A model generated the notes under the pieces. That model had not been told where the DNA came from. It did not search any database and worked only from the letters and a program-made list of their open reading frames with translations. Positions 1 to 57,735 of a stretch of DNA of 64,000 nt are shown piece after piece. The DNA is taken from positions 1 through 64,000 of the forward strand of contig JAUGWO010000115.1 of assembly GCA_049724395.1 (NCBI GenBank), given 5' to 3'. The DNA is from Spongospora subterranea f. sp. subterranea. Its lineage: Eukaryota. How positions within the stretch are numbered: the first letter of the stretch is position 1; each line of letters opens with the position of its first letter. Both the position numbers and the translations under genes were made by a program.

Positions 1-446
1 ATGGTACCTAATCCATAAAAGACCGGTGAACCTAAATAATAGCGGTATGATGTACCACAAATGTGACCTTTACATTGATCAGTACAAATTATCAACAAAG
101 GAGTACAGTTCAGCAACGCAAAATGTTAGAAATGATAATTCCAAACAGCAATTTATGATAAAACCATCGCTAGACAAAACGATGAGACACGATAAAAACA
201 TAAATCCGAAAAGGCACCGATCATGCGACGATTCCGACGACCAACCCACTCAACGTGCCAAATATGAAAAACATCAAACGCACTCTAAACAAATCTGCAC
301 AAAAAAGCGAACATTGCTGATAAGATAAGGACGGCACTGAAACGCAGTATAAAAGACGGCTTACCAACAGCGAGCGCCAATGCAAAGAAGTTGCAGACAA
401 TGAAACAGCGCGAAAAACAGCCTCAAAACAGACACCAACAAGCCAG

Positions 447-3400
447 ATGAGCCACTACGAACTCACCAAATTGATCGGAAATATACTAGAACCAGACAAC
501 AAGGAAGACAATATAGCAGACACATCGGACAAAAACCTGAACGGAACTAAAACACACAAACGGCAGATGAAAATAACTCAATATTTCATGAAAACCAATA
601 CCAAAACCAGAAAAATAAGAACAACCAGGAGCTTAAAAATCGCTCAATGGAACGCCTGCTCCCTAAGCGAACAAAAATCAAAAGAACTGTCTCGATTTGC
701 TAACACCAACCGCGTCGATGTAATATGTATATCAGAACTTCACCATAGACGCCAAGTAGACGATTTCCCAAACCACGAAGCCGATGACCGGTACACCCAA
801 GCTGGAATTTTTTGGAGGGACCATGTAAATGTAGATGTGATGCGCATTCCTGCAATACAAACGTTTGGGAACGACGGAATCATGACACAAATAGTAAAAA
901 TATATAGTGAAATGATATTAATTCACATATATATACCACCGGATATAGATCGAAATACTAGAAAAACATATTGGAAACAAATCGGCAAATTCGTAGAAAT
1001 GCGAGATGAACCGATACTTCTAACAGGTGACCTCAACACCAAAGATAGACGGTTTGGAATCCACCATGACGAAACTCACAAATACCTAGACAGCATATTG
1101 GAAGAATGCAAATTGATGAACAACCCGGAACGCCCAACAAGAGGAAACAACTCATTAGATATCACCATTGCCAATCGACAGATGGCAAAGGAGATCTTAC
1201 AATGGGACGTGCACGCAGAGCTAGGCAGTGACCATTCACCGACAACAATAGATACTACAATTAGAAGAAAATCGACGCAAAGGATTCCCCCTAGCCGTAA
1301 AAGAATACAGCGAATTGACACACGAGCGACAACGAAAGCGTTAGAAGAGGAACTGCAGAATGTTGAAAGCAAGAACATGGGACTAACAGCTTTCATTGAC
1401 CTATTGCAAAATAGCATTAAGCACAAATATGTTAGACAGAATAGATGCAAATTCTGGACCACGAAACTCAAAATTGCGTTAAACTTGCGAAATAAACTCA
1501 AGCGCAAACACCAGGAAGCCATACTGAAATGCAAAAGCCAGCAACTTATTGCACGGCAGCACACCGAAATGCGAAAAGCGGAAATATCATTGAGGAAACA
1601 ATTTCAGAAAGCGAAAAATGCAAGCCTTAGAACGGAAGTTAAACAGGCATGTATGGACGAAACAGGAGCCAAAATATGGAGCCTGGTAAAGAAGATAAGT
1701 CCTCAAACCAACAAACGGAGACGAAAGTACGAAACACAGAAAGTTGATGCAAAAGATGAAGCGGAAAAAATAGCTGACAGTTTTGAGGCAATCTACAGCG
1801 AAGCAGACCTTAACCTCAATGAGCATGAACAGCGTGAACACGATCTACTCATTGAAAAACTATGGAAAGAGAGAATCTCTCAACCACCGGAAAAGATTAC
1901 TTTGAGAGAGCTAGAAAGGGCAGTTGTTAAGGCCAATAGGAAATCAGCAGGAGGAATTGATGGAATACCGAATAGTCTCATCAAAGAATTATGCAAAAAT
2001 GATATGAACAAATACGCGTTGCTGAATTCAATTAATAACGATATTATAGATTTAGGATACTTCCCACAAGATATGAAAATAGCGAAAATCAGACCATTAC
2101 CTAAAGATAAACCAGGTGAATATAGACCGATATCATTATTGCCTAATATAGCCAAACTGGTAGAAGGGATTATTGAACACAGAATAAGACACCAAGCGGA
2201 AAAGCACATACCTGATAACCAATTCGGGTGCAGACCCGCTCATAGTACTACGCATGCATTGTTAAGATTGCTGCATAATGCAGGATTAGCAGCTGCTAAA
2301 GAACAACAATTCGCCCTAATTGTATATGACTTTATGAAAGCCTTTGACAGAGTACAGAGAACACTACTAGTACGAAAGATGAGAAATATGGGAATAGACT
2401 CATACCTAATATTATTGATCGACCAATGGTTGACAAAGCGAATATTCCACGTGTGCCACAGGAAAAATATTACAGAGCCGCATTATCAAGAGAACGGAAT
2501 CCCTCAAGGATCCAGTATTAGCGTCTTATTATGGATTATATATATCTACGATGCACCAATAGAAACGGTCAATAGTAATGTTTATGTAGATGATACCACA
2601 CAATGGGCAACAGATTCAACCAAATGGGAAGTAAAAAATCAACTGAGGGCAGAGAGTTCAAAGCTGCAAAGCTGGTGCACAGCAAACCACATTAAGATAC
2701 AATGGCTGAAAACCCACTTATTATTCAATGAACATGCTCATAGAGACCAAATAACTGTCAACGAGCATAAAATCAAAACAACAGACACAATCAAGTATTT
2801 AGGGGCAACCTTAAGAGCAAATGATGAGAATCACCACGCAACAATCAAAATCGATCTCAAAGAAGTAGCAAAGGACATTAAAACCAGATGCAAATTAATG
2901 AGAGGGCTACGAAAATATGGAATTCCAGTTTCGACCTTTCAAAAAATATGTCGAGGATTCATAGGCGGAAAACTCAATTACTACCTGCCATGGCTTGCAG
3001 CGGAAATACACCAAACCATGAAGACCACTCTGAACCCGATGGAAATTGCATATAGAGACTATATGAGAACATATACAGGATGTTTCCCATCGACACCAAT
3101 CCCATTATTACATGCGATATCACGATTCCCATTATTAAAGGATAGAATAATTACAGAGACAACAATGACAGTACTTTCAGCACAGGCAAATGGCACATTA
3201 TTAGGAAGTGAATATGCTGCCTGGAATGGAGATGGCGATGGATGGACCCCATTAGGGGAGGTATGGGAAGCACTCAAAGAGAGAGTACCTGACACATATG
3301 ATGCAGTTCATACTAGGACTGATATACCAGCACGAATATTGGAGGGATTATATAAGGTCAAATACCATTCCTCAAATAGGGAAAAAGCAATCAAAAAACA

Positions 3401-4362
3401 CAAAAAAGGAAAGCTATTGCCGACAAACCCAGATATCGAACTATGGACAGATGGGAGTTTTAATAAGGATGTTGGCGGAGGAGCGGCAGCTCTGCTAATT
3501 GATTATACAAATAGAGATGAAAAAGGCGAGACCAACGAAGACATAATTACCGTTAAACTAGGAACAGAAGTGACATCATCATATGAATGTGAGATTATTG
3601 CACTGAATAGTGGACTAGATATAGCTGTAGACCAGAACTATGAGGGAAGACATATCCACATAATGACAGATTCCTTATCATGGATGAGTCAACTACAATC
3701 CTTACCGATAAAACCAAGGAGAGTGAACGCTATCGTTGCGGAATGTGCAGATAAATTAGCGAAATTAACAAAAGAAAACATGGTGGATATACACTTTATA
3801 CCAAGTCACGTGGAAAACGACAACAATAATGAAGACGAGATGAAAGTCCCCATAGGACACAGCGATGACATTGATCAACTAGCAAAGCAAGCATCGATGG
3901 ACGGCGATGAAATTCAACATGACCCATTTATATCATCGTTCAAACTGCATCTTAAAAAGAGAGAGAGAAAACCTTAAAGATTACATCAAAGAACGAGTTC
4001 AAGCTAGCAGATTCAAAGGATACCCAGAAAGGGATAAATTTAAGATATTAATGACGCTAAACGAAAGGAAGATTGAACCTACAACCCCGCTTCTCAACAG
4101 AGCAAGAACTGGGCACTCTTGTGCAAGAAATCACCTGAAGAACCTGAATATGGATGACAGTAACATATGCAGATGGTGTAATACGGAAATAGAGACGATT
4201 GAACATCAGGTGTTACACTGCAAGGCGTTACAAGGAAAGTTGAGTAAAGTCAGGAAAGAGTACAAAGGTTTGAACACCTCATCATTTGAAAATGCACTGT
4301 GGGAATACCCGCAAGAAATGAACAGGATCCTAAGAAGGGCAGTGAAGAGGTGCTACATCTAG
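447..4362 (+). CDS. LINE polyprotein split by a frameshift in a (GA)n run near 3958-3970
   Basis: 1176-aa ORF 447-3977 continues in the +1 frame (ENLKDY...CRWCNTEIETIEHQVLHC); adding one GA unit joins the two. Confidence 0.88.
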
Positions 4363-10275: not shown

Positions 10276-11922
10276 ATGACAATGAGGTTGACCGATATTG
10301 TATTTTTTGTCATCTTCTCGTGGTCATCGGCTGCACCTTGTCTTGAGATTGGGGTTCATGTTGTGAATGACGCCCTGATCTACCGCCGTCTGGGCGGCCG
10401 GGTCGAACAGGTTGCTCGTGATCTCATTGCCGAAACCTCAAACATGTTCATCAACTCTGATGCTCCTGGAGTACAATGTTTACGTCTTCGGTTTACTGGT
10501 ATCTGCAATTCGATGTTGCAAGTACCTCGGAATGAGTTTATTTCTGATTTATGATCAACACAAATACTTTCTGATTTAGGGTTTGGTTTATGCAGACAAA
10601 CAGGATGTCTGACGTTTGCCTTTGTGATTTGGATTAGGTCAAACGACATTGACGGAATTTGGCCCGTTGTCATATCAAACATGTGATGGCAACTGCGGCG
10701 AAGGCGCCACAAAGTCCTCCGTTGACCCAATGCGCCTATTGGATGATTTCACGACCTTCGCACGACAACGCCCTCCAATGTCGGGATTAACGCTGTTGCT
10801 GACGGGTGCTGCATTTCCGGGGTCGTCAAGAGGTTTATCGAACCAGGCAACGTTGTGCACGGTGAACGCCCTTGGAACGGTCAGTGTCCAAACGGGATCC
10901 TCGCTTCATCATGCACAGCTCATCGCGCACGAGATCGGGCACATATCGTCGATGACGCATACAAAAAATGCCAAGTCAATTATGATTGACCGTTCGTCTC
11001 CCTTTTCACTGCCAACAACTTTCGCACCAGATGATTTGAGAAAGGTGACGTCGTCAGGAGAATGTCCAGTTCCGAACGAAACCGCCTCCCAATGCGGTAA
11101 TGGACTTGTTGATGACGGTGAAGAATGTGATCCAGGAATGAATGATGACGCGTGCTGCGATCGATGCCGACTGGCCAACGGTTGTCAATGCGCTCAATCG
11201 GATGCGTGCTGCATCGATGGGCGAATTGCGCCAGCAGGTCAACGGTGTCGTCCTGCGCAAGAGAGTATTTGTGATCGCGAGGAGTTCTGTGATGGTGTCG
11301 ATCGCCGCTGTCCTGCCGATGATTTCGCCCCGGTCGGTACACCGTGTATTGATGTAAACGGCAGTGCATCCCAGTGTTTTGACGGGCAATGTGCTCTATC
11401 TCCTGATTCGCAATGTCGTAATACGGGTTTGCAACATTTGATGTTCTCGTGCCCGACAAAACTCTGCAATGTAAGTCAATTACAGAACTTGATGTTGACT
11501 TATATTGTTAATCTACATTGCAGAGATTATACTGTTCAGCAACGGCTGAGCCAACCCGCCAAGATTGTTCTGCGTTCGTGGAAAGGAACGTGGCCGATGG
11601 CACCGTTTGTGGTACCGATCACATTTGCATGGATGGATCGTGTGTCGCCGCTGATGACGTCAATGACGAATTAGTAGCTGAATCGCGAGCGCGGCGAGAG
11701 CAAAAATTTCAATGGGATGTATCGCCTTGGAGCGAATGCAGACAGCATGGAGCCAAGTGCATCCAGACACGGCAAGTCGTTTGCCACAATGACGATCAAC
11801 AATGCAGTCACGATCGCCCTAGCGCCCAGAGGCGCTGTCTCTGCGACCTCACCTCCACGTCGTCATCGTTCATTTCCCATATCGGGGTCATTATGGTCGC
11901 TTTGACTTGGGTCGTACTTTGA
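10276..11922 (+). CDS. Secreted or GPI-anchored ADAM-type (M12B) metalloprotease with disintegrin, Cys-rich and TSP1-like domains, spliced
   Basis: Signal-like N-terminus; HEIGHISSMTH plus SIM Met-turn; CGNGLVDDGEECDPG and CDREEFCDG...CP disintegrin; VADGTVCG; WDVSPWSEC; hydrophobic tail; intron 11471-11523. Confidence 0.88.
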
Positions 11923-26779: not shown

Positions 26780-29700
26780 TTGATATGGGATTTCACACCT
26801 GTGCCCATCCCGGAGTTTCAGTTCCGACGAATGGAGGCGATCGCCATGTCGGATCCGACCGGAGGCTGCGATGCCATGTCGGTGGCGATTCGTATGGCTA
26901 AGGCCCTGCGGTATGCTGGCTGTGGACCGAGGAGAGCGCAGAAGGGTATCCGATGGTCGTGGTCTGTACCTGGCCGCATATCGAATTCCATTTCCGAATT
27001 GCTCGTGATTCTCGAGAGGGATTCCGACTTGTTCGTTTGTCCTACATTTCGCTGCCATATGACAGGTCTCTGGCAGTTTGTTAGCCGAATTCAATCTGCC
27101 CAACTATCGCATGACGAGTTCTTACTGTCTTTGGCACATTATCTCGCCACACTTTACAAGAAAGGATCAGCGTCAGTTCGATCATAGTCGTTTTTACTTT
27201 TACATCTTTTTCGATTAGATATTTGTTCTGAGTTGTATTTACATCTTGGATTTCCTACACTTAGTTCGATGTTTTTATGCGTGATGCATTTTTCGTTTCT
27301 TACAGGTTTTTCAATCAGGATCGGTGCTCGTTCGTCTTTGCATTCACGGACGTTGGACCGGATCGCATCAGTTTGCCTGGAAATCGCATTGGGTGGTATG
27401 CGCCGACAGTATGACAATATCGACTTCATCTCGACATGCAGATCTGTCATCGTTCAACTATTAAGTGAATCGTCCAGCGAGCCTGACCACCTTAGAGTCC
27501 CTCCTCATCTCTTCTCTCAAATGCCAGATTTCTCTCTCGCCGTGTTCACCGAACAGTCCCACATTGTATCGTCCGATACATTAGCAGCGCAGAATATCCC
27601 AGGCAGAAGTCAAACGATAGCCACAGCGGTTCCCACAATACCCCGCACCGACTCAATGGACATTGAGGGAGTGCCAGTCTCTTCTGACACGGTTGTTGAC
27701 GATATCCAAATTCGCGATTGCTCCATGTCTGACGATGATGACGAGGACGATGATATTGCTTCAGCAGATGATGTTAGCCGTTCAACCACCACTAAGGACG
27801 TCCCATCAGTCAGCTTTGATGCTCTTTTCCATCGATTCAATATTCGCCATTCTGGTTCTTTGCGAGTCCTTGACGTCTGCCGTAAACTCCTTTCCGCAGA
27901 TCGGTTTGTGACCCCGGTTTCAATATCCACTCTCCTTCTTCGATTGTCAACCGTGAATAGCCTTTTGGAAGCTATTGTTTCTACGCAAATTAGGTTTAGA
28001 GTGGATACAGATGTGATTTCATTCGCCCTGGACGTTCTGCACAATACACTCACAGTTCACGCCCCCATGGCGCGGCATTTCATCCTTGTTGGTCCAGACG
28101 AGGTTTTATCGTGTCGGGATGCATCTCAAGCGTTATCTCACGTCGTGCAGAACATTCTGAAACTGATTGTCGCGGTTGCACCAGCGCATGTTGCACGTAA
28201 TGTCCGCGTTGTGGTATCGGCTTCAATTCTCCACTCATTCTTGTACTTCGACATGGCGCATTTCAACGAGTTGGCTTCTGTATCTGGGTTTCCTATACCG
28301 GAATCGACCCCCGACACTTTCCGTCTCAACTGCTCAGACGCCCCGGCCACCACTGGCGAATCATCTGCTTCTTTTCAGCGCTTGATAGAATCTTTGGCGT
28401 TCTCATCATCTCTGCTGCCGCTGGCGACGAATACATCCATGGATGCCGTGGGTTATATTGGTATTGAACCGCTTCCTCCGATTCTCTATAATCTCTTTTC
28501 GTCAGTGTCGTCCGTCTCCGATTACACCGTCGATGTGACGGATTCCTCGCTCTCTCCCGACGACTTGTACAGTATTCTTCTTAGCGGCAGTTTGCTAAAA
28601 CCGTCTGAGCCAGGAAATTTATTTTATAAGTTTGCCCTTCTCACATTATCATCATTGCATTACAATTTCAGCGATAGTCTCTGTGCGACGTTCATTCAGT
28701 TCTTAATTCGCTTGCTTTCCTATCACCATCCATCAATATCTGCCACGGTATTGCGGTCTTTAAAGCAGGTTCATCTTGACCTGATGTTGGGCATGTCTTT
28801 AATCAACGGAGAACGCGGCACGTTCAGCCCGGCGGATTTCATTGAACTTAGCTGTGCGCTTTCACAGCGTGCTTGCATTCCTGATGACTTTTGTCTTAGT
28901 CTTGTCCAACGTCTATTAAAACAAAAAACCTGGGTGTGGACGTTGCCGACTATGACAGTTCAAACGCTGTTTTTGTTGGTGGCGAAGTCGTCCCCGGCAC
29001 GGGGTGTATTACTGGACAAACTTCTCGGCGGGTTTGACGGTCTGTTACAAGGAAGTCATCTCGTTGGGAATGGTCCAATGGGGCGCGCCATGATTTTATT
29101 GACGTTGTTGTCTTTGTTAAGCCCATCTGAAGTTAGGCAACATGTTTTACAAGTGCTATTGCAAAGCCTGACGGCCAAGACCAACGTTAGTTTCGCCCCT
29201 ATTCTCAATAATGTCAATGTGGTTTGGCTGTCAATGCTGTTTATGTCTAATTTCATAGCTCAACGTTTGGATCGGGCAGCCTTACCGCTTGAAGAACTTG
29301 GACTGTATTGCGATTTGCTCGAACACACTGACGTTTTCAGCCTTGACGAAATCTGCGCCCTGTTGCGGGGGAAATTTCCTCTCTCGTTCACACCATCTTT
29401 GTCGAAATTTCACCACGGTGACGAATTCTGTGATCGTTTTTGGCACCTGTTATTGGCGTTTTCCCGGAAGATGAGCTCCGACATGAAACATGCCGAACTG
29501 CCATTCTCGCTAATCAGTTATCAGGCAAAATCATTCAGGTTCATTGGATCGATTCTGCGTATCATCGTGGATTCATCATCGAATCTGTTGTCTCAGTACG
29601 AGAAGCTATCGCGGTGTTCGGCGGAGCTGGATCCGGCGTCTCCAACCACCGCTTACTTTCTGCAACAGTGTGCGATCAGGATGCGAACCGGGTCTGGCGA

Positions 29701-32700
29701 CACTTTGATGCCCCCCGACCCGATCCTGTTCATGTTGGACTGTTTGGATAGTAATCGACAATATCTCTCTAATCACTCGGCTCGCCCATGGTGGGTCCAC
29801 CTCGCCATCGATACATGTATTCAAGCGGCAAGTTTCCATCTCGTCAATGATGATTCCGACGTATTTATTGCCGAAATGTTCGTCCTATCACTGCTACGGC
29901 TCGTTACAACCTACGCTAATCTCTTACGAAAATGCGTTCATGACCTGGTCTTGTCGAGGGAAAACGTCGACGATCCCGTCCGGTCCTCCGTTATCGAGTC
30001 ATTTCTTGAGTTTGGATTAGGGAATGTAGATACTCTGAGTCTCCCTAGTGAATGTCTAGTCGATGTCATTGCTGTTAGCGATCTTTGGGACCCATCAGTT
30101 CTAACCACATTGTGGTCGCACCATATCCCATCTGGTTCTGATCCGGTATCATCCCTGATAGCCGACCTAACCTCTATCCAGTCTGTACTCCGCTCTATAT
30201 TCTCATCGCTTTCCCTAATGTTAACCGCTTGGCCAGCTTTATGCAGTAAACTGTCGGATATGGGCATAAAAATCCTGAAACCATTGCTGTGCAGTCGCTT
30301 GGTACCACTGGGTCAATCAGCCAATATCCTGGCGTTCTTTCAGCCATTTCTATCATCAAGTGGTGTTTTATTACAGGAGTCCACAATACAACTTGGTCAC
30401 GTTCACTCGATCATTCACCGAATCATCACAGAATTGACACCTCATCTTCATGAAATCTCGCAGCTTATCGTGGAGTGTTTGACTTTTTTACGACGACAAT
30501 CGCGCGCCGCTTTATCGTCATTTTACGCCACAGAATCAGCTGAATATTGTTTTCCTGATATCGTGTTTCTGTTTGCTAATGGGGGCGCGCCGATCGCCCA
30601 TGAGACTCTGCGTTTGATCCTGATCCTAACTGAACAGACGGCCCAGATTGGCATTGCCAACCAGTTTCGCCTCGCCTTTATCGTATCATTAGACGCCATC
30701 ACGTCGCTGATCAAGGCCCCGACCTCCATGACCCGCCTCCCGTCCACTGAGCAACGGGTTCGTGAACAATGTTGGACCCTTTTACGCCGTCTATTATCGT
30801 CAACTACTCGCGATTGTCAATCAGCTCTCAGTTCCGCGACGTCTGTTCGAAAATCTCTAGCGTCCTTGCCGAGAATTTGTTGAAAGATGGTGGAGGTGCT
30901 GGCTCCGTTTATGCGGCCGTTTCCATTATGTGTCGTAGTTCACCTTCCACCGCCGCGATTACACTTCTTTCCCGACTTCTACCTACGCTTGCAAATCGTT
31001 CCGCTTTTTGCGCCATCGACGCCATCGATGAGCTGCTTGAACTGGGGTATGACTCCCAGAACGATTGCGGAATCCGGTCTGCTCTCCCATCTCGATGCGC
31101 TTCGGACTCCAATACCTTGTCGGGTACATATATGCTGTATTCGTCAGCAACTCCTGTCGAACTGTGCTCGTTCTGCGTTCGCCATTGTTTCGCTGGGAAG
31201 TCTGAGGATATTGCGTTAACTTCGACTTCATCATCCGCTGTTGGTCGCTCGCAGTGTTCCTGCCAATCACATCATGAGGCTCCGCAAATGGTGTCGACGA
31301 CGTGTTCGGCTTTGTTCGAAGAGTCTCTAATTGGGCCATTATCAGCCGCTCTAGAGCAGTTTGTCTCATCGCGTATCGATCTAATTGGTTATCCGTCGGT
31401 CAAGGGATCGATATTACCCCAAATGCATCTGTCTCAAGCCGTTCCTCCATCTGTTCTTACATCATCTGCCGTTATTGGTCAGCCTTCTCAGCCTATATTA
31501 CCTCCTCTCGCATTGGTAAATCCCCCCTTGTTTTCTCTTGATCGTGATTCTATACTGTTTGTGTGATGGGTTTATATTATCTGAATTGGTTTGCCTTGTG
31601 TGCTTCAGACTGAAAACCCTGCATCATTCTTGACGAGCCCTCCAAAACTCTCATTATGTGGTGTCACGTCTTTTCCGGATGCGCTTCTGGTTACGTGCGA
31701 TAATTCAATGGTCAACGTGTACCGTAATTGGCGGAATGATCTTGCGTCCAACGTCCGTTTGTGCTCATCATCGTGTATGCCATTCCATGTTTTAGGTGAA
31801 ACCCGCTGGATCATATCGTCATTTTTACATCTTTTTTGTTTTCGCCATTCAGTTTCGTTTTGATTGTGTCACTCTGAATTCATTTTTATCCCATTTTTTC
31901 TGATAGGAATATCGGTTCAAAACTTGATGGTGCTGTTGCATGGGCCACGTGATGCACACATATTGAAGCTGGATGCTACTGGGAAGCGTATTGGGCGAAT
32001 TAGGCTGGATCTTTTGCTGGATGACACCAGAAATGCGGTTCGCATTGTGTCTGGACAATGGTTAACAGGAACATCACGGATAATGGTCGCCACCAATATT
32101 TGCATCATGATGTTCGATATTGACGATGACAATCCGCTTCCGGTATTGGAGCCGTCATTCCTGGTTGCCGGCGACTGGGATAATTATATTTGTGATGCCA
32201 CGATTTACCAGAATCGCTATCTTTTCGCCATCACCACAAACGGATCAGTTTTCGTCGAAAATCTGGATTCTGTAACAGGGCAACTTTCCAAACAGGTCGT
32301 TATTCCGGGTTTCGACTATGGCGAAACCAGTTCCGGATCCGGTGTTTCCATTTTCGCGTCGGCAACGTCTCGTCGTCTGATTTGTTGTTGGTCTGGATGC
32401 GGGACGCGCATTTTCTCTGTGGATGATGATGTCGTTTTGAGCGCCTGCAATCCGCCTTTGCTGGTCAATACGCCGTCGTCGGCTGTCACCAACGATTTGC
32501 GGTGCTGGACCGATGTGATTGGGTCTCATGATTTGATTGCTTCGATCGCCCCAGACAGCCACCGTCTTGTTTTATTCCAGGTCATTTTTATTTCTCAAAC
32601 GTTTCAGTTTATGTTTGGTCGATTTTCTCTTTGATAATCCCGAAAGTAATCAGTGTCCAGGTTTCTGATGAAAGCCCGGACGTATGGTGTCGAACATGGT

Positions 32701-35019
32701 CGTTGCCAGAACGCGGTCGTCAATGGTGTGGTCTGGTTGACTTTTCGTCAGATTTGCGGACTCCTGCTCTACTCATTCAAATGGAAAACGGTTCCTTCCA
32801 CGTTCTCAGCGAAGATCTCAACGTTATTCAGCCCCAGCTCGTCAGTGTGCCCTCATTTCAATCGTTCCTCGACGCCCCCGATCCTTCCTCGTCCAGGTTT
32901 TCACCATAAATCTCAATGTCTCATCGCTTCCCCCTAACTTATGCTTTCTCAGAGCGACCGGAAGTGGTGGTGGCGAAAGTGCCGCCTGGTCCTATCGTGA
33001 CCCGACCATCTTTGATCGATCCAAATGTGTGGCTACAGTTACTGTTCGTGGAACGTCAGCGTCCAAGGATTTTATCAGGGATGTGGCAAAAAGCGCCGGT
33101 TCCAATGGAGATTCGTCGTCGATCAATAAAACCGATGAACTTGCTATTATGATTGAGCCAGAGGTTCCTCCCGGTCATTGCATCGTGGCTGTTCGTGCAC
33201 TCGTTGATCGGTCATCGTCGCTCCAGAACCTCACAATCACTCTGCCTGCGTTACGACGGGTTTGCCACATCTCGGTCACGCCATCGTCTCCCAAGCGAGG
33301 ATTCGACATCCCTTTGTGCAGGTCCTTAAAACATGGTTTTCTCGAACGATGAATGTTGAACAGCACCCATCAGGTTTGAATCAGCCCAACTCGCCTCAGT
33401 TCGCGACTGTGTGGAAGTAGTTTGCCATTCAGAACCGGATTCCCTATGTGCTCTGCTCGCAATCGAGGTTTATGCTATGCCAAGATCGGAATTCCATAGT
33501 TCTACTTCCGCATCGACCGTAACCAATATTCGTCAAAACTGGCCGTAATATTTGTCGAATCTCTTCGCTTTTGAAAAAATATCTGATCGGTTATAATAGC
33601 TGGCCTCTGCCATCTCAACCGGAATCGACCCCGGATTTCAGCAATGAGACTCTCCTTGGGTCCGCTCTACGTTTATGCCTTCGGATATGCCACATCACCA
33701 ATGGGCATTGGGTGGTTTTGCAACGAATCCTTCTGCGTGTTCTTAGCGTTGTGGGGAAACCCTGTTTTGAGAGATTGGAGACGTTATTTCATCTGCTTTT
33801 GATGGAGGTTTGTGCTTTTCTTACAGTCATTTAATTGACAGTGTATCCACAGTTTTGCAGGTTATTCCGCATTACACCTTTCCCGAATTTGAGAACATGG
33901 CCTCTTGTGCAAATTTTTGTGGCCGTCCCGGTTTGCGAATGTTCATCTCGTTTAGTCATCTTCATGCACAAGTATGTAGTCTGATTTCTGTGGTGTTTTG
34001 CTTTCACCGATGTTGAGCAGGTCTGTCGAACTAAAGTACCATCGTATCAAGCTGGCAAACTACTGATTGCGGTGATTGATGACGGCCTGAATGCAATTGG
34101 CAAAGTCCATGCGCATCGCTTCGGCGCATTTCTTCGTTCGTGTCCGACGTTCATGACCAATTTATGCGAGATTGCATCCAAGCTCATTCTAACTGGAGAG
34201 GTACATGAACAATTCTGCAAATCCATTCACTTCCTAAATCTAATCTATCATTTTTCAGAATTGTCACGTATTTCACTCCGTCTCGCTTCTCTCCAGTTTC
34301 TTCGAGTTCATTTGCGAATCAATCATTGCACTGGCCCATGGCGATCATTCACAGGACGTTCGGGATTCGTTCCTGCAAGCTCCGCTGGAATTCGTAGTTG
34401 CATGTTTGGCATGTCCATACCATACAGTTCGCAAAGCCGCCCTGGAGCGATCAGTGGCATCGTTCGCCTCGTTATCGCAACAGTTTGCTCTAAGAGCTGC
34501 CACATTACCTCTTGTCAGAACACGACATTGTACCATGGTGGGAGCCTAATTTGGGAATATTGCTTAGGAACCCGTCCCTGCTGTGAAACCAGTCGTTGAA
34601 CCTGCAGTTTCAGTCTCTTCAGACAATGACACTTCCGCTCCTGAACATCAGCAACAACGGGTCACGACCATTTTGAACAGCGTTAATCGCAGTTTGACTG
34701 CACAAGGTCTGCTTTTTTTCTGTTGAAAATGCTGTTTGTGGTTGGTGAATGTTTTCTAGGAACACGATATCGATGCGATCTCTGTGATATTTGCCCAATT
34801 ATTGGGCCAAGATATCACTGTGCCCATCCAGATTGCGTTGATTTTGATCTTTGCGTGAGCTGTTTTGGTGCCGGCGATTTCATCGGTTCAACTCATCTCT
34901 CGTCGCATGAAGTCGTTTTGCTCAACGATGCTCAGTCAAGTCGTAGCCAACAGCCCGGTTCGCATTCTGCTGGCCCGAATGTTCGCCTTGGTCGGAGGCG
35001 AAACGCCCAGCATTCCTAG
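26780..35019 (+). CDS. Large UBR4/BIG-like protein: helical region, degenerate UBR box, propeller-like region, ZZ finger; multi-exon
   Basis: 1216-aa Leu-rich exon; CSFCVRHC...CSC UBR-box-like; YRCDLCDICPIIGPRYHC...DFDLCVSC...H...H ZZ finger; apparent frameshift near 30810-30830; both ends approximate. Confidence 0.62.
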
Positions 35020-38170: not shown

Positions 38171-38192
38171 GTGTGTGTGTGTGTGTGTGTGT
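38171..38192. repeat. (GT)n microsatellite
   Basis: About 11 GT units. Confidence 0.9.
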
Positions 38193-38353: not shown

Positions 38354-41300
38354 ATGACGTCCTCGAATGATGGCGACCGCGTCGACTGCAGATGGATCGA
38401 GCGAGAAGCGACCCTTGACAAGTTGCGGGACGTTTCAGAGTTCCTGAATGATCGTGAGCGTCCATGGTTTCACAGGTTTCGAAAACCTCTCGGATCACTG
38501 GCAAATCCTGACAAATCGTTTCGAAAGATTTCTTGAGCAATTTCGTCGGATCGAAGTGAAGGCAGGTGGCGTTATAGTGGAGCAAGGCCGTTTGAGAAAA
38601 TCCTACTATGTGATTGAATCAGGCAAGGTCGAGGTCATGACTCGCCTTCCAGATGGCACCAACCACGTCTGCAAACATTTATCGCCATATGACTGTGTAC
38701 GTATCGGTCTCGACCGAATCAGCGTCGAATGACCGGCCCGTTTGCCAACGCATCATGGAAAATCATTGTAGTTTGGTGAATTGGCAACAATCTACCGGCA
38801 ACCTCGGGCTGCTACAGTCACCGCGGCAGAAGATTGTGTGGTCTGGGAGGTTGACGAGGCAAGCATGCAACAATTCCTGATCTGCAACCCGCAACTTGAC
38901 GATGGGTTCAGTCAGAAACGCCGATACAGGTTGGATTTTCTCATCACAGCATAGCGATCAGTTTAAACGATTATCCCGGAACGATGAGAGTAGGTTAGAA
39001 CAGTTATCTATTCGAGCCAATAGTTTAGTTTACCCAATTTCCGTCTGAATAACCGTTGCACCCGTCGTTATTTTCATCTTAAACAATTCTGATTCGTATT
39101 CGCGACCTCCAGGCAGGCACTGTCCAGAGTGCACTGGTTTTTACCAATCATCCATGACGAGATTAAAGTAGAAGCCGTCAAAATCACGGTCAATTCTTGG
39201 GAAGCCTTTAACCATGACTTGTAGGTCCGAGAACTAATAGAAGCATTCCAAAGCGAAGAATTTGCAGAAGGAGAAATTGTTCTAAAACAAGGGGACAACG
39301 CCATTGATGGCAAATTCTACGTTGTTCTCGAAGGGCAATGTGAGGTTATGGTAAAGAAAGGGGATAAACCTCCCGCGTCCATCGCTCGTCTGGGGGCAGG
39401 CGACTCGTTCGGCGAGTTGGCGCTAATGAGGCGCGGCTCGTTGCGGAACGCCACAATTCAGTGTGCGGAACGCACCACGCTGTTATCGATTGGCAGGCGA
39501 CAATTTCACAGGTTAGCAAGGAAAGGATGGTTAGTCAGTAGTACTCCCGATATTCACAACCTCATGTCGTTGAATCATGTATCAAGCTCCCGTCTATGGT
39601 CGAACTTTGCCGAAAACGCTAGTGTGGTTGTCGATGGTGAAAGGTTCATTAATATGCAGGTTCGGCGATCTTATATCATGCTTCCAACTGCTTCTTTTCA
39701 TATCTGAAGGGTCTGCCAGGATTTGGGCAGAATTCTGCTGCAAGGTGACAGATCTGACGATGCATCTCTGGTTAGCCTGATCTTCGAAGCTGCAAAAGAG
39801 CGAACACAGAAGATCATGTCGTGGCCAGAGTTTGTAATCTTGACCGGGCTTCTGCATCGAGAAAATTCACACCTGCAGTTGGCGTTCATGTTCGCCGATC
39901 GAAACCAAGACGGATTTGTGACTCGTGAAGAGTTTAGAGATGCGATGGCTCAGCTAACGGCCCAGCAAAAGCGATTTGCAGGAATTTCCCAAAACAATAC
40001 GAATTTGAAATCGGTTAACTTTGAAGTGTGTCTTTCAAATTGAAAAGTTTTTAATCGCAATTTCAGGCTGAAAGCGAGATGGAGCACTTGTTCGATGAGA
40101 TGTTTGAGGGGTCCGATAGTCTAACTTTTGATGAATTTTCGACAATGCTGCAAAAGGAAAAACGCCCTATCTGCCATGGTGAAAGTCTGGGATGACGTTG
40201 TACTGCGGATGAAATCGACATCTGCCAATTGGTATGCCCAAATTACCATAAATACTTCTTTCTAATGGCTGAGAACAGGTTTGTGTCTGCAATTGAAGTC
40301 GGGTTTGAATCTGATTTTCCGGCGTCGCTCGCTTCCCCTGTGAACGTCGACGATAACACTCATCGGCCTTGGCTCTACTTAACCAGCGGTGCTATTGCAG
40401 GCGCGGTTAGCCGAACTTGCGTATCACCGCTGATCAGGTTGAAGATGATCATGCAAACAGGAAAGTCTCCTCCTTCTGGCGTTATTTCTGGCTTGCGGTG
40501 TTGGTTAAAACCAAAATCAAACGTTATTTTACATATCTCACCGTAGTGTCTTAAAGCAATGTACGTTAAAGATGGGTTCCGTGGTTTATTCCAAGGAAAT
40601 GGGTCGAATATTCTTAGAATAGCGCCGACAACAGCGCTGCAGTTTCTGTTTTTTGAGACCATAAAAAGTTGGATGAATCAAGGCGATAATGGGAGGCCTC
40701 TTTCCGTTCCCGAAAGACTGTCAGTTTTGTGAATGTAATTGCCGTTAATTCGAAATAATCCTGTATTCAGTATAGGAGGGGGATTTGCTGGTATGGGGGC
40801 GGCAATTCTCACATATCCATTAGGTAAGTTAGCTTGAGCCTTTTTATATCAAAACATATAAAGATCATCCATAGATTTCATCAGAGCGCGACTGACAATT
40901 CAGTCAGCTGCAGATAAAAAGTACAACGGCATCATTCATGGCATCAATGTTGTCATCAAAACAGAAGGTTGTCCAGAGCAATCTGTGTCTGTTTCAATAA
41001 GTTAAATATCTATCAGGGTATTCCGCTTTATTTCGAGGGTTATGGCCAACTATACTCGGTGTATTTCCCTACATTGGCATTGATTTCGCTGTTTTTGAAA
41101 CTCTGAAGCCCCTAATGCCCTGCAATGAAACATCAAACGGGCGCCGGGGAAGCACAACAGCTGGTATATGAGCGTATCGCGTCTTCACCAGGATCGGTTA
41201 AATGTTGATAAGGTGGATTATTACTTGCTGGAGGCGTCGCGGGACTGATATCACAGACACTTGCGGTTTCCACTAGAACTTGTCAGGAGAAGATTACAAG

Positions 41301-41545
41301 TAATAGATAACTTGATTCGTGAAATGGCTCGGCAATAATATATGGGAAATCAGGTACAAGGATTCACAGAGTGCTCATACGGTTATAACGGAGGGGTCTT
41401 CGATGCTCTACAAAAGACTGTAGCTCGGGATGGGTTTTCCGGTCTGTATAGAGGGATGAGCGCCAATATGGTCAAAGCCGTTCCGTCCATATCAATTTCT
41501 TTCTTTGTCTACGAACGTTGCAAGGCGTCATTTGATTTACAATAA
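38354..41545 (+). CDS. Predicted fusion of two cNMP-binding domains, an EF-hand region and a mitochondrial carrier (SLC25)
   Basis: FGELATIYRQPRAATV and FGELALMRRGSLRNATI cassettes; DRNQDGFVTREE EF-hand; three carrier repeats (PLIRLK, PLDFIR, PLELVR); phase-compatible introns; 1-nt indels at 40158-40162 and 41265-41266. Confidence 0.82.
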
Positions 41546-44809: not shown

Positions 44810-45005
44810 CAAATCGATAAACTCGCCGGTGTGTGGGAATGTGTCGCCGTCCGCTGTTCTCCGTGACTGCTGTTCCTTCACTGCACCCGACCTACACCTC
44901 TGATCCGTGCTCGAGGTTTCCAGCGATGCCGCTCATTGAATGATCGAAATTGAAAATCAGGCTTAAGCACTTGTTGCACTAAGAAACTAGATCAACTCTC
45001 AGCAN

Positions 45006-45007
45006 NG
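45006..45007. other. Two ambiguous bases (NN)
   Basis: agcannggag. Confidence 0.99.
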
Positions 45008-45118: not shown

Positions 45119-46296
45119 TTATAATTTTATCTTGAGAGTTGATGAATGCTGTATGACGTCTCGGATAGTGCGGATAGTGCCCGAAGCCGAAGCCCGATCC
45201 AGAACGCTGCATGTTAGGACAGTGACCTGCTCGGCGCCCGACCTCGTCACCCGACTCAAGAACGTTGACTTTAAGAATGCAATCGCTTTCGATGGGTTCT
45301 GGTCATCCTGAACAAACAAACGCATTTAAGCAACATCGGCAAACGTGACCACAGCAAACTGACAGCAAATTGAGGGAACAAATTTGTTAAGGAGTATTTC
45401 CTCATTGTTTGAGGCAGAAGATCGATTTTTGTAAAAACAACTATCACTGGAACTCCAATGCAATTACGGCAGTTGACGAGCTCTTCGAACACTGCTAACG
45501 ATTCTAGAAGGCGATTTGCTGTAGGATCCTCTTCAAGCGACTCCTGGAAATCCCCGATTGACGCCAGAAACACGATCGCGCCCAGGTTATGGAAACACGG
45601 AAGCCATTTTTTGCGTTCGGCGCGGCGTCCACCCACGTCCAGGAACTGGATTGGTTTGCCAGCCACTTCGACGTTGGCCTCAGTGATTCCGGACGATCGC
45701 ACAGTACAGTGCAGATAATCGGCAGAAGTCGGCACATAGCCTACTTCAGTAACGCTTCCAACCTTGTCGAGAAAATACGCCACCGATGATGGAATCGATG
45801 TGGCAATCTGCGATCGGAGTTTGTAAGTGTTGCGGATAGAGGGGCTGGCCCAAAGCCTGGCGATGTGCCGGCCCATCTTGACGCTTAATACATCGTCATG
45901 TCGTAATGTATCCATAACATATATGGCAGAGCGAGCAATGTTGCCATCTGAGGGCAACGCAGTCCCCAGCGTTGGATGAGTTATTGCCAGCTCTTTGGCC
46001 GCCTCCACTAACGCTTTGATGCCAATTATGATGATTCCGTGGATAACGCTGCGTATCACTTGGAGATCCTTGTTGGACCAGGAGCGAGTTTGAATTTGCC
46101 GAAATAGGGTTGTTTTCCCAGCACCGCCAACGCCTAATATGAGGACACGCTTGGTGGTTGACGGCGATGGCCGCGGCTGGCCATCGCGCTTTCTATGAGT
46201 TCGTCGAGAAGAAGTCGTGACCGAGCCAGCATCACCAAAACGTGATGACGACCGGGCGGTTGGCGTTAGCAACGCGCCGCAGAATAGACTTGGCAT
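45119..46296 (-). CDS. Divergent heterotrimeric G-protein alpha subunit, two exons
   Basis: LILGVGGAGKTTLFRQI, LW..PSI, YFLD, Y.PT..D.L, DVGGRRAERKKW..CF, NRL.ESL..F, TKID, TCS..D; intron about 45310-45362. Confidence 0.92.
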
Positions 46297-47107
46297 GCGA
46301 CTCCCGTTTAAATATCGAATATATTAAGTAATACGGCAATAACGATAGTGCACGAACTGGGGAAAGAACGCTCAGGAGTCACTGTCGCGTGAGTCAAATC
46401 CAGGGACAATGGATTAAACCTGCGGGCTGGATGGTTGAATTCGAACAAAAACGAGACGGGATTCGAAGGCGATGGTGGTTGTGAAAACAACTGCGCGACG
46501 CACACCGATCTGTACAGGGTTCGCGCCGCCTTTCAGTGAAAGTGAAATAATTACGCGCCTGACTTGACCCAAATCGGCACTTTTGTAAACCTGCCTGGTG
46601 ATGACGAAAACGGGTCTATGACGTAATTTGAATTTGCACCCGATACCGTCGGCCGATATTATATTAACGGCCGACTGTTCGCTGTGACGAATAAAGGGGC
46701 TCGTCTGGTCGTCTCCGTGATTTTCATTAATCACCGCGCTAATACTAATGATCCGTTTTTTTCACATCTATGATGCCGCAATACCATCATTACCAAAAAA
46801 AGTTGCTCCTGTAGAGTCAAATCGGTATTATTATCCCGTTCAAAGCGGTCGATTGTTGCGATATGATCCTGTGGTTTAGGAATAGGGCTCTGGCAATGAC
46901 CCATGTGACGTATTGACATGCGACAGAGGTTTCATAAGGAGGTTGCTTCATGAAATGGATCAACCCAGTTGTTGGCGTTAGACGAATCCCGCATCGCAAT
47001 GAAATCTATACACTGCTCTGAGATGAAACAGCGTAAAGGGAATGTGATCATCATCAGGAGTTCCCCTAGCAGCAATACATGAGAGGCGTTCAGTAACATG
47101 TATATTG

Positions 47108-56199: not shown

Positions 56200-57226
56200 T
56201 ATGCATCAGATGGATCGAGGTGAGGTTTTGGTTGTCCTGTTGCAAAAAGATCGGCTGCGATCAGTCCCGGGGCCATTTCGAACGAATTGCAGGCATAATG
56301 TCATGAATCAAATGTCTTCGGATCACATCCTTGTTAACTGATTCAATGGGTTTAGTCACCATAGTGCCTGCAGGACGATTCTTGCTGCTCCTTTTGGCAG
56401 GCTCCTTGAAAACAAATGGGAAAATGCCTATTTTCCCAGAAAACCATCGGTTCCGCGACCGGTCCCATTTTGGTCTTGCAACTGCTGCCATAAACATTAT
56501 CTTCTCTATAAACCGCTTACTTTTACACGTGCGGTAAGGCTCAGTCTCATCGGATGCTAAGTAAATTCGCTTGTTTGTTTCTGTCATGAAAAACCACTTC
56601 TCGTCAATGTGTATCACATTCATCATGTCATGGAAGACTGGTTCTGCGGCTTCATATATGTTCACCATCGAGATACAGAATCTGAGTCTTTCAAGCTTAT
56701 TAGCTTCAGTTAAATATGGTTTCAAAGCGTTCGAATGAGGTTTAAGAATGCCTTGTTGAATCCGATTATGAACAGTAGAGACTGATACATTCAGAGCGCA
56801 AGCGATTGATCGAATATTTGTTCGCTTCTGCAATGGAATTTGTTTTACTTGCTCCGGCGTGATGACCGTTTTCTTCCTTCCAACACGGCCTCGTTTTTTG
56901 GATGAAACATCTGCTGGGCCTGTTCCAAGGATAGAAGACTTTTTGCCTTGATTCCAGATTCGACTGACAGTTTTTCTGGCAACAGAAAATTGGCGACTTG
57001 CCAACAAGATTGAACCGCGAGCAAGTTTTCCTGCGACACTCACTTTCAAAAGATATTCATAAATGACACGTCTTTGACTATCTGTAACGTTTGATTTCCC
57101 TTTTCTGTGTGCGAAATCTGCATCAACGATTTGATTTTCGAAAACTTGTTGCTCTCCATCTATGGTACTTCTCAGCGACTTGATGTTTTCACAGGGCAAA
57201 TTCGGACCTACTCCTGGTGCAGACAT
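56200..57226 (-). pseudogene. Mariner transposase, truncated
   Basis: HTH region, IHIDEKWF, KIMFMAAVARP, GKIGIFPF, SKNRPAGT; stop at 56261 then IFLQQDN; third-D region not found. Confidence 0.92.
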
Positions 57227-57735
57227 GCTTTTACAAGAAAACTCGGCTATGTGAAAGCAGCGGTGCCGTTGGAAGTTTCGGACGAATACCCAACTTTTAC
57301 CTCGGCGGTTTTAAGGCAAGTATTTATTGCTGGCGCTTCAAGATTGGATAAGACTGCACCTATGCTTAATATTCCAATGCATGTTGAAATCAACTGGATG
57401 GCGCTAAAAATGGCCTTAATCCACGCAGTTGTTTGAAATGGGACTCTTATTTCCGAACAGAGGGAGTAGTAAATAAAGTAAATTTACATGTGTTTTAACG
57501 TTTATTAGAATTTTTGTATTTTTACGGGTCAAAACGCACAAAGTGCAAATCTCTGTGCCGGCTATGGGGATCAGGGCTATTCTCGTACTGTACTTTAACT
57601 GGCCATCCACGCACTTTTTGAAATGGCCAGTTAAAGTGGCCAGTCTTTTATAGCCCCCCGTGTATCCAACTCTAAGGACCACAGCTGTATCCCGTAAATC
57701 ACGCCACATTTTCCCATCATCGCATTGAAAGATCA

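What the first reader, a model, noticed from the sequence alone, without database searches (positions are those of the whole stretch)
38354..41545. Mitochondrial carrier fused to tandem cNMP-binding domains and an aralar-like EF-hand module
Seen: short GT-AG introns join, in phase, cNMP domain A (FGELATIYRQPRAATV), cNMP domain B (FGELALMRRGSLRNATI), a segment ASVVVDGERFINMQDL...MSWPEF...AFMFADRNQDGFVTREEF...LTFDEF, and a three-repeat carrier. Known: domain A matches the PKA regulatory-subunit phosphate-binding cassette (PRAA, cAMP type); the middle segment parallels the aralar/citrin (SLC25A12/13) N-terminal regulatory domain; the carrier motifs (AVSRT, GNG.N..RIAP, GVFPY.G..F, RRRLQ, K.VP) belong to the ADNT1/SCaMC/CoA group rather than Asp/Glu carriers. 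Inference: a transporter regulated directly by cAMP and Ca2+. I do not know this architecture from characterised SLC25 proteins. Caveat: the join needs one A removed from the run at 40158-40162.
Basis: partly seen in the sequence, partly recalled or inferred. Interest (0 to 1): 0.9.

Follow-up and report, generated by a model that had tools for sequence, protein, structure and literature searches.

The report
cAMP-sensor mitochondrial carrier of protists
This protist gene joins two cyclic-nucleotide-binding domains and a calcium-type EF-hand module to a mitochondrial transporter, a layout found intact in several distant eukaryote groups, and it likely makes an adenine-nucleotide carrier switched directly by cAMP and calcium, a control not found described in the papers searched.

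Summary
The fusion is real. Fifteen GT-AG exons give about 768 aa: cNMP x2, EF-hand module, amphipathic helix, three-repeat SLC25 carrier. The window copy has two one-base surpluses (40158-62, 41265-69); no reads could be checked, so error (about 70%) versus a freshly broken allele stays open. The join does not depend on them: 19 of 120 listed database clusters carry cNMP plus carrier in one protein, among them Plasmodiophora brassicae (57% identical, mislabelled 'Calmodulin'), two unicellular holozoans and red algae. Their carriers form one clade (98/92), apart from ATP-Mg/Pi, CoA and Asp/Glu carriers. The EF module is the aralar/MICU-type EF1-4 half; the window lost aralar's calcium loop (EF2) but has a canonical EF3. 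The carrier keeps the adenine-nucleotide site and one of two ATP-Mg/Pi-carrier acids. Best model (inferred): an adenine-nucleotide exchanger gated by cAMP and Ca2+ through a locking-pin-like helix. Ten literature searches found no description. This scan noted related fusions four times before on other DNA. New variant of a known kind.

The parts
38354..41545 (+). Whole gene, 15 exons: 38354-38475, 38528-38696, 38772-38929, 39113-39167, 39225-39529, 39587-39659, 39720-40025, 40067-40231, 40279-40499, 40557-40719, 40771-40823, 40875-40967, 41017-41163, 41213-41299, 41354-41545; about 768 aa when read through two breaks
   Evidence: every exon aligns to the Plasmodiophora orthologue, 57% identity over 750 positions
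38354..38929 (+). cNMP-binding domain A (exons 1-3); phosphate-binding cassette at 38772-38813 with Glu, Arg and Ala (cAMP type)
   Evidence: PF00027 E 8e-8 and 2e-7; motif rules from PMC2246266 and PMC3080414
39113..39529 (+). cNMP-binding domain B (exons 4-5); cassette at 39408-39452 with Glu and Arg-Asn and a one-residue insertion shared with Plasmodiophora
   Evidence: PF00027 E 5e-18; PKA-R and PKG structures are the top hits; alignment
39528..39647 (+). C-helix of domain B, which is also the entering helix of EF1, followed by the EF1 beta-hairpin (spans the added intron 39530-39586)
   Evidence: BLAST to a PKA-R; AF2 secondary structure of the orthologue, H262-272 then E275-284; profile alignment to aralar
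39720..40138 (+). EF2 (loop degenerate, 39795-39830), EF3 (canonical 12-residue loop, 39897-39932) and EF4 (degenerate, 40118-40138): aralar/MICU-type EF1-4 half
40158..40162 (+). Break 1: A run one base longer than the orthologue frame allows
40176..40303 (+). Predicted amphipathic linker helix between EF4 and the carrier (spans intron 40232-40278)
   Evidence: AF2 H415-440 and H156-185 in the orthologue models; hydrophobic moment 0.37 here, 0.26-0.68 in 19 rows
40367..41527 (+). SLC25 carrier domain, three repeats; H1 motif with Ile at the acidic position (40427-40444), adenine-site G-V-x-x-Y with following Asp (41058-41084), H5 RRR motif (41270-41293)
   Evidence: PF00153 on 4 exon pieces; motif table; trees
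41265..41269 (+). Break 2: GG/TTT one base longer than the orthologue frame, just before the H5 Pro motif

Best explanation
The locus is a member of a conserved family of cNMP x2 / EF-hand / SLC25 fusion proteins, and the protein is likely a mitochondrial adenine-nucleotide exchanger (likely ATP-Mg or ADP against phosphate or another nucleotide) whose activity is predicted to be gated directly by cAMP and Ca2+; the two breaks in this copy are likely assembly errors. Shown: the architecture, its intact occurrence in Plasmodiophora, Chromosphaera, a 'Clim' gene model (Corallochytrium by recalled prefix), red algae and environmental sequences, one carrier clade, and intact ligand and substrate motifs. 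Inferred: the N-terminal part faces the intermembrane space, as in other EF-hand carriers. cAMP binding to domain B moves its C-helix, which is the first helix of EF1 with no linker between, so it would shift the EF1-2 unit that is mobile in aralar. Ca2+ would bind EF3. The amphipathic helix after EF4 would shuttle between the EF groove (carrier free) and the carrier cavity (carrier blocked), like the locking pin of ATP-Mg/Pi carriers.
For: 19 of 120 listed clusters carry PF00027 plus PF00153; named ones. Fused carriers form one clade, 98/92 on 18 of 18 rows. PBC-B keeps Gly-Glu and Arg in 21 of 21 rows that hold it. EF3 loop canonical in 19 of 24 rows (2 rows read where the pattern mis-picked). 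Carrier keeps H1 Arg, H2 Arg, G-V-x-x-Y and H6 Lys, and the Asp matching APC1 Asp361 in 18 of 18 non-red-algal rows, a residue shared here only with APC/SCaMC rows (residues from PMC6283063 section 9). Cytoplasmic network 3 of 3; matrix network 2 bridges plus 2 Gln braces, balanced as in exchangers. The EF-plus-helix model matches citrin best (Z 13.3, rmsd 3.3, 148 aligned), the aligned range reaching citrin residue 646, within its groove-binding C-terminal helix 632-658. Breaks: no premature stop, 14 of 14 GT-AG introns, 94 of 106 family-conserved columns kept, the same count as Plasmodiophora, and no rate increase after break 1 in 4 of 4 tests.
Against: No binding, transport, localisation or expression data. 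PBC-A has lost its Arg in 6 of the 19 rows that hold it and its Glu in more, so two working sites are not a family rule; 4 of 21 PBC-B have Thr/Ser (cGMP-type). APC Glu264 is absent, and the clade's sister is a group of plain green-algal carriers, not APC (93/90), so the substrate is not fixed. Aralar's calcium loop EF2 is lost here, and a 2025 review says calcium regulation of aralar itself is not supported. Whole-model pTM is 0.43, so domain packing is not predicted; the helix-in-groove reading rests on first and last aligned residues only, and calcineurin-type hits lie within 1 Z. Neighbouring genes checked show no frameshift, which makes two errors in 2.3 kb less expected; 1 of 16 rate tests showed the window faster (cNMP part, p 0.006).
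Confidence: 0.55

Rival explanations
1. The family is as described, but this copy is a recently inactivated allele: both one-base surpluses are real, giving a truncated cNMP-EF protein and no carrier.
For: Both breaks are in the sequence as given and break 2 cannot be spliced out. COX15 (345 codons), a G-alpha frame (350 codons) and the TTL-family junctions inspected show no frameshift, so the local error rate looks low.
Against: Both are +1 and repeat an adjacent base, typical of long-read consensus errors (own knowledge). No stop codons, splice-site loss or loss of conserved columns. A LINE element in the window also shifts frame at an AG/A run, though that may be decay.
Confidence: 0.28
2. 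Only cyclic nucleotide regulates the carrier; the EF module is a structural lever, as now argued for aralar, and the cargo is AMP/ADP, PAP or CoA rather than ATP-Mg.
For: EF2 lost in the two phytomyxid rows; EF1 and EF4 degenerate. PMC12410006 passage on aralar. Glu264 equivalent absent; sister group is plain carriers with Asn in place of the APC Asp.
Against: EF3 loop is canonical in 19 of 24 rows and its first Asp is invariant; the APC-type Asp is kept in 18 of 18 non-red-algal rows.
Confidence: 0.25
3. The cNMP domains capture cAMP as cargo, feeding it to the carrier, which imports cAMP into the matrix or buffers it at the inner membrane, rather than being gated by it.
For: The carrier has an adenine-nucleotide site and belongs outside the characterised clades; the H1 acidic gate residue is replaced by Ile in a 7-member subclade including the window.
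Against: No substrate evidence. High-affinity PKA-type cassettes release ligand slowly (own knowledge). Loss of one matrix-gate charge is common in ordinary carriers (abstract of PMC9104175; animal APC).
Confidence: 0.1
4. The protein is a membrane-anchored PKA regulatory subunit or scaffold, and the carrier is mainly an anchor.
For: The tandem cNMP pair is closest to PKA-R and PKG structures.
Against: No dimerisation/docking domain by Pfam and no RRxS/A inhibitor site in the 41 residues before domain A (read). The carrier is the best-conserved part (73% to Plasmodiophora against 42-55% elsewhere) with gates and substrate site kept.
Confidence: 0.05

Closest known systems
Mitochondrial ATP-Mg/Pi carriers (APC/SCaMC, SLC25A23/24/25; yeast Sal1)
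   Same: Order EF-hands, amphipathic helix, nucleotide carrier; adenine-site residues and the Asp361 equivalent; balanced gate networks.
   Different: EF module is not the calmodulin-like one (family EF profile scores APC rows at 26 bits or less against 55-125 for aralar-type rows); no Glu264; separate clade; APC has no cNMP domains.
Aspartate/glutamate carriers aralar/citrin (SLC25A12/13)
   Same: Homologous EF1-4 including the EF1 beta-hairpin (E 8e-31 and 5e-27; top Foldseek and VIA hit).
   Different: No EF5-8 dimerisation unit, no C-terminal helix after the carrier, EF2 calcium loop lost in the window, EF3 canonical instead, and an unrelated carrier clade and substrate site.
MICU1-3 (Dictyostelium MICU, 9k6m)
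   Same: Same EF-module superfamily; the best sequence-profile hit (E 3e-35).
   Different: Ranks lower by structure (Z 8.6, 67 aligned); MICUs are free regulators of the calcium uniporter with no carrier.
PKA regulatory subunits / PKG tandem CNB domains
   Same: Tandem CNB-A/B with canonical phosphate-binding cassettes.
   Different: No docking domain, inhibitor site or kinase; the last C-helix runs straight into an EF-hand.
Plain green-algal carriers (database label 'SLC25 member 23/24/25/41'; recalled as ADNT1-like, a label from no call)
   Same: Sister group of the fused carriers, 93/90; near-identical H2, H4, H5, H6 motifs.
   Different: No regulatory domains (one has CBS domains); Asn where the fused family has Asp.
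Uncharacterised database orthologues: Plasmodiophora PBRA_005283 (CEO96679.1, 'Calmodulin'), Chromosphaera Nk52_evm47s1671, Clim_evm27s108, Cyanidiophyceae and Eucheuma proteins
   Same: Same architecture, 33-57% identity to the window model.
   Different: They are intact; red-algal forms add an N-terminal PF05708 domain that the window lacks (upstream DNA is a TTL-family gene ending 682 nt before the ATG).

Membership tests
SLC25 mitochondrial carriers | Three Mito_carr repeats with six transmembrane helices | tested here: met
   PF00153 on 4 window exon pieces; 3 repeats in the orthologue; AF2 helices
SLC25 mitochondrial carriers | Px[DE]xx[RK] on H1, H3, H5 and [YF][DE]xx[RK] on H2, H4, H6 | tested here: met
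   5 of 6 complete; H1 acid is Ile in the window's 7-member subclade; single losses occur in working carriers
SLC25 mitochondrial carriers | [quoted passage not shown] | not testable with these tools
   needs localisation and reconstitution
ATP-Mg/Pi carriers (APC/SCaMC) | [quoted passage not shown] | tested here: not met
   one canonical loop in the window; APC domain 4zcu aligns over 67 residues, Z 7.7, against citrin 148, Z 13.3
ATP-Mg/Pi carriers (APC/SCaMC) | Amphipathic helix between EF domain and carrier | tested here: met
   predicted only
ATP-Mg/Pi carriers (APC/SCaMC) | Adenine/phosphate residues plus the two acids Glu264 and Asp361 | tested here: inconclusive
   adenine and phosphate residues and Asp kept, Glu replaced by Thr
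ATP-Mg/Pi carriers (APC/SCaMC) | Carrier falls in the APC clade | tested here: not met
   APC rows 98/97 and fused rows 98/92 are separate clades
Aspartate/glutamate carriers (aralar/citrin) | N-terminal EF1-4 with EF1 hairpin | tested here: met
Aspartate/glutamate carriers (aralar/citrin) | EF5-8 dimerisation unit, calcium-binding EF2, C-terminal helix after the carrier | tested here: not met
   module ends after EF4 and one helix; EF2 loop lacks Asp1; protein ends 5 residues after H6 (features from PMC4250520)
Aspartate/glutamate carriers (aralar/citrin) | Asp/Glu-type carrier sequence | tested here: not met
   motif table and trees
PKA regulatory subunits | Tandem CNB domains with FGE-AL...R cassette | tested here: met
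PKA regulatory subunits | Docking domain and inhibitor site | tested here: not met
   no Pfam match on exon 1 or PF02197 on the orthologue; no RRxS/A before domain A
PKA regulatory subunits | cAMP binding | not testable with these tools
   needs ITC or cAMP-agarose

The most novel reading that the evidence does not exclude
An ancient, undescribed SLC25 subfamily, present in Rhizaria, unicellular holozoans and red algae, is a third independent invention of a ligand-regulated mitochondrial carrier and the first gated directly by cAMP: a PKA-type cNMP pair is welded through a shared helix to the mobile half of the aralar EF module, which operates an APC-style locking helix over an adenine-nucleotide carrier, so cAMP and Ca2+ set the matrix adenine-nucleotide pool without a kinase.
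Probability: 0.45. Interest if true: 0.85.

Novelty: new variant of a known kind. Interest (0 to 1): 0.64.

Why it matters
The review passages read name only two carriers with regulatory domains, APC and aralar/citrin, both calcium-type; the 2025 family review contains neither 'cAMP' nor 'cyclic'. A carrier with built-in cAMP sensors would be a new route from cAMP to mitochondrial metabolism, and intact orthologues in harmless culturable protists make it testable with standard liposome assays. It also bears on the evolution of carrier regulation: APC and aralar were called convergent, and this family joins aralar's EF module to an APC-like carrier and helix. It offers a natural case for the disputed question whether the aralar EF module can transmit a signal. 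Databases hide it under names such as 'Calmodulin'.

Tried and rejected
No genome is held for the window and no read data were obtained, so the breaks are untested. A metagenome scan with the last exon gave 11 loci (of 489 pattern matches), all distant carriers at 30-61% identity, none with cNMP exons. Word-index searches with single exons found no relative or only unrelated cNMP proteins; the HMMER search found the orthologues. The ESM Atlas did not complete, so cluster sizes and wider taxa are unknown. A viral scan with the family alignment could not run. The predicted complex of EF module and linker helix gave no verdict (0.25 against a mark of 0.34). Rejected: the indel-free splice 40179-40298 (removes the conserved linker helix); two separate genes (the frames overlap by about 20 nt, and orthologues are one protein); a SCaMC origin of the EF module; an upstream PF05708 domain. 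The EF-module tree does not resolve one origin of the fused modules (60/44); the quick carrier tree gave 79 with all 62 rows, and the 98/92 value comes from 42 rows after dropping 20 (4 long or unstable rows and 16 near-duplicates or end-truncated rows). Searches for prior description returned nothing on this architecture; subscription papers and supplementary domain tables were not seen and could list it.
Full report
Observation. The region 38354-41545 holds one + strand gene between a TTL-family gene (stop 682 nt upstream) and a - strand frame ending 50 nt downstream. Reading three frames and chaining GT-AG junctions gave 14 exons; comparison with an orthologue added a stop-free 57-nt intron at 39530-39586. 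The final model has 15 exons, 14 of 14 GT-AG introns of 41-183 nt and about 768 aa, with two places where the DNA has one base more than the frame allows: the A run 40158-40162 and GG/TTT at 41265-41269. Pfam on 12 exon pieces found cNMP_binding on 3, EF-hand on 2 and Mito_carr on 4.

The fusion is a conserved family. A HMMER search with the EF exon returned a 744-aa Chromosphaera perkinsii protein with cNMP x2, EF-hand and Mito_carr x3 in one chain. Searching with it gave 128 hits, 120 listed, of which 19 clusters carry both PF00027 and PF00153: Chromosphaera, a 'Clim' model (Corallochytrium by recalled prefix), Plasmodiophora brassicae PBRA_005283 (annotated 'Calmodulin'), 4 red-algal clusters with an extra PF05708 domain (Cyanidiococcus, Cyanidium, Eucheuma and one unnamed) and 12 unnamed environmental clusters. 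No listed animal, fungal or land-plant hit had PF00027 with PF00153, but the search is word-limited, so absence is not shown. The window model is 57% identical to Plasmodiophora and 41-43% to the holozoan and nearest environmental proteins; the window is therefore probably a phytomyxid relative (inference). Orthologues align through both breaks in the shifted frames, which rules out the indel-free splice and two separate genes.

Are the breaks real? Reads could not be examined. For error: both are +1 repeats of an adjacent base; there is no premature stop; the window keeps 94 of 106 family-conserved columns, as Plasmodiophora does; relative-rate tests after break 1 are flat in 4 of 4; branch lengths are 0.26 against 0.21. 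Against: COX15 reads through 345 codons, a G-alpha frame 350 codons, and the junctions inspected by eye in the TTL, ADAM-like and a large unnamed gene fit introns; only a LINE element shifts frame, at an AG/A run. One of 16 rate tests had the window faster (cNMP part, p 0.006). I put error at about 70%.

cNMP domains. Both match PKA-R and PKG structures best. PMC2246266 (passages) gives the cassette as FGE[LIV]AL[LIMV]x[PV]R[ANQV]; PMC3080414 (passages) gives Thr after the Arg as the cGMP determinant. Window domain A has Glu, Pro-Arg-Ala; domain B has Glu, Arg-Asn with a one-residue insertion shared with Plasmodiophora. Across the family domain B keeps Gly-Glu and Arg in 21 of 21 rows, while domain A lacks the Arg in 6 of 19, so B is the conserved sensor. 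BLAST against a PKA-R places the C-helix of domain B on the residues that the aralar alignment and the AF2 model (H262-272, hairpin 275-284; mean pLDDT 79, pTM 0.43) assign to the entering helix of EF1: the two modules share a helix.

EF module. A family profile scores aralar-type N-termini at 55-125 bits over the full length, a MICU-like protein at 64 and APC/SCaMC proteins at 26 or less. Against the PDB the profile ranks Dictyostelium MICU (3e-35), aralar (8e-31) and citrin (5e-27) first; the folded module (pLDDT 87, pTM 0.81) ranks citrin first by Foldseek and VIA (Z 13.3, rmsd 3.3, 148 aligned; calcineurin-type chains 12.4; aralar 10.3; MICU 8.6; APC domain 7.7). It corresponds to EF1-4 only. 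PMC4250520 (passages) shows EF4-8 dimerise, EF1-2 are the mobile unit, only EF2 binds calcium, EF1 has a hairpin, and a C-terminal helix (632-658) binds a groove. In the window and Plasmodiophora the EF2 loop has lost Asp1, whereas EF3 is canonical in 19 of 24 rows. After EF4 comes a predicted amphipathic helix and a disordered loop. The VIA range extends to citrin 646, suggesting this helix lies where citrin's C-terminal helix lies; the tool reports only end points, so this is a hint.

Carrier. The fused carriers are one clade (98/92, 18 of 18 rows among 42), separate from APC/SCaMC (98/97), CoA-type and Asp/Glu carriers, and sister (93/90) to plain green-algal carriers that I recall as ADNT1-like (the 62-row quick tree gave 79). 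PMC6283063 (abstract, passages, sections 8-9) lists Gly353, Ile354, Tyr357, Arg209, Lys260, Lys453 as the nucleotide site and Glu264, Asp361 as APC-specific. The window has all six equivalents (Val for Ile, Arg for Lys260) and the Asp, but Thr for Glu264. The Asp is present in 18 of 18 non-red-algal fused rows and in 12 of 15 rows I had grouped as APC, and in no other row. The cytoplasmic network is complete; the matrix network has lost the H1 acid in the window's 7-member subclade, leaving two bridges and two Gln braces, about the balance the same paper ties to strict exchange. Single missing charges are tolerated elsewhere (PMC9104175, abstract).

Mechanism. Shown: architecture, conservation, motifs. 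Inferred: an adenine-nucleotide exchanger whose N-terminal part sits in the intermembrane space; cAMP on domain B moves the shared helix and with it EF1-2; Ca2+ binds EF3; the linker helix is held in the EF groove or released to block the carrier, as in the locking-pin model of APC1 (PMC5369052, abstract and introduction). I give this 0.55. Rivals: broken allele at this locus (0.28, compatible with the family model), cAMP-only control or another cargo (0.25), cAMP as cargo (0.1), anchored PKA-R (0.05). [quoted passage not shown]

Novelty. It is an SLC25 member but not an APC, AGC, MICU or PKA-R by the tests above; it is predicted to work like an APC with a cAMP input. Ten full-text searches (listings seen) found no description; passages of PMC12223298 and bioRxiv 10.1101/2020.03.24.006015 did not mention it, and the CNB survey PMC2246266 has no 'carrier' or 'mitochondri'. 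Supplements and subscription papers were not seen. This scan had noted related fusions four times on other DNA, mostly the form with the papain-like domain; those notes are unchecked and not independent. Verdict: real, conserved, apparently unstudied; new variant of a known kind; interest 0.64.

Noticed in passing
window 324-4362 +: LINE-type element (endonuclease, RT, RNase H, zf-RVT) with one frameshift at an AG/A run near 3960-3975.
   Followed up: partly
window 10628-11919 +: ADAM/ADAMTS-like gene (reprolysin, disintegrin, cysteine-rich domain) in a probable phytomyxid.
   Followed up: no
window 27188-35000 +: Large multi-exon gene with a 1231-codon open frame and no Pfam match on five pieces.
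   Followed up: no
window 45274-46323 -: G-protein alpha subunit whose P-loop reads GVGGAGKT and switch region DVGGRRAER, with Arg where I recall the catalytic Gln; possibly GTPase-deficient.
   Followed up: no
window 38697-39719: Five successive introns of the gene have lengths divisible by three (75, 183, 57, 57, 60); one has no stop, so its retention would insert 19 residues at the cNMP-B/EF1 shared helix.
   Followed up: no
P0166 / P0281, after EF4: Both Plasmodiophora models carry an 18-residue basic insert at the position of the window's break 1; it may be a retained intron or a real insert.
   Followed up: no
P0186; P0182, P0183, P0229: A Neomeris carrier in the sister group carries CBS domains, another nucleotide sensor fused to this carrier type; choanoflagellate, trypanosome and environmental CoA-type carriers occur as tandem doubles.
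   Followed up: no
window 38172-38191; 45005-45006; 56264-57310 -: A (GT)n microsatellite about 170 nt upstream of the ATG; the window's only two N; a Tc1/mariner-type transposase frame.
   Followed up: no
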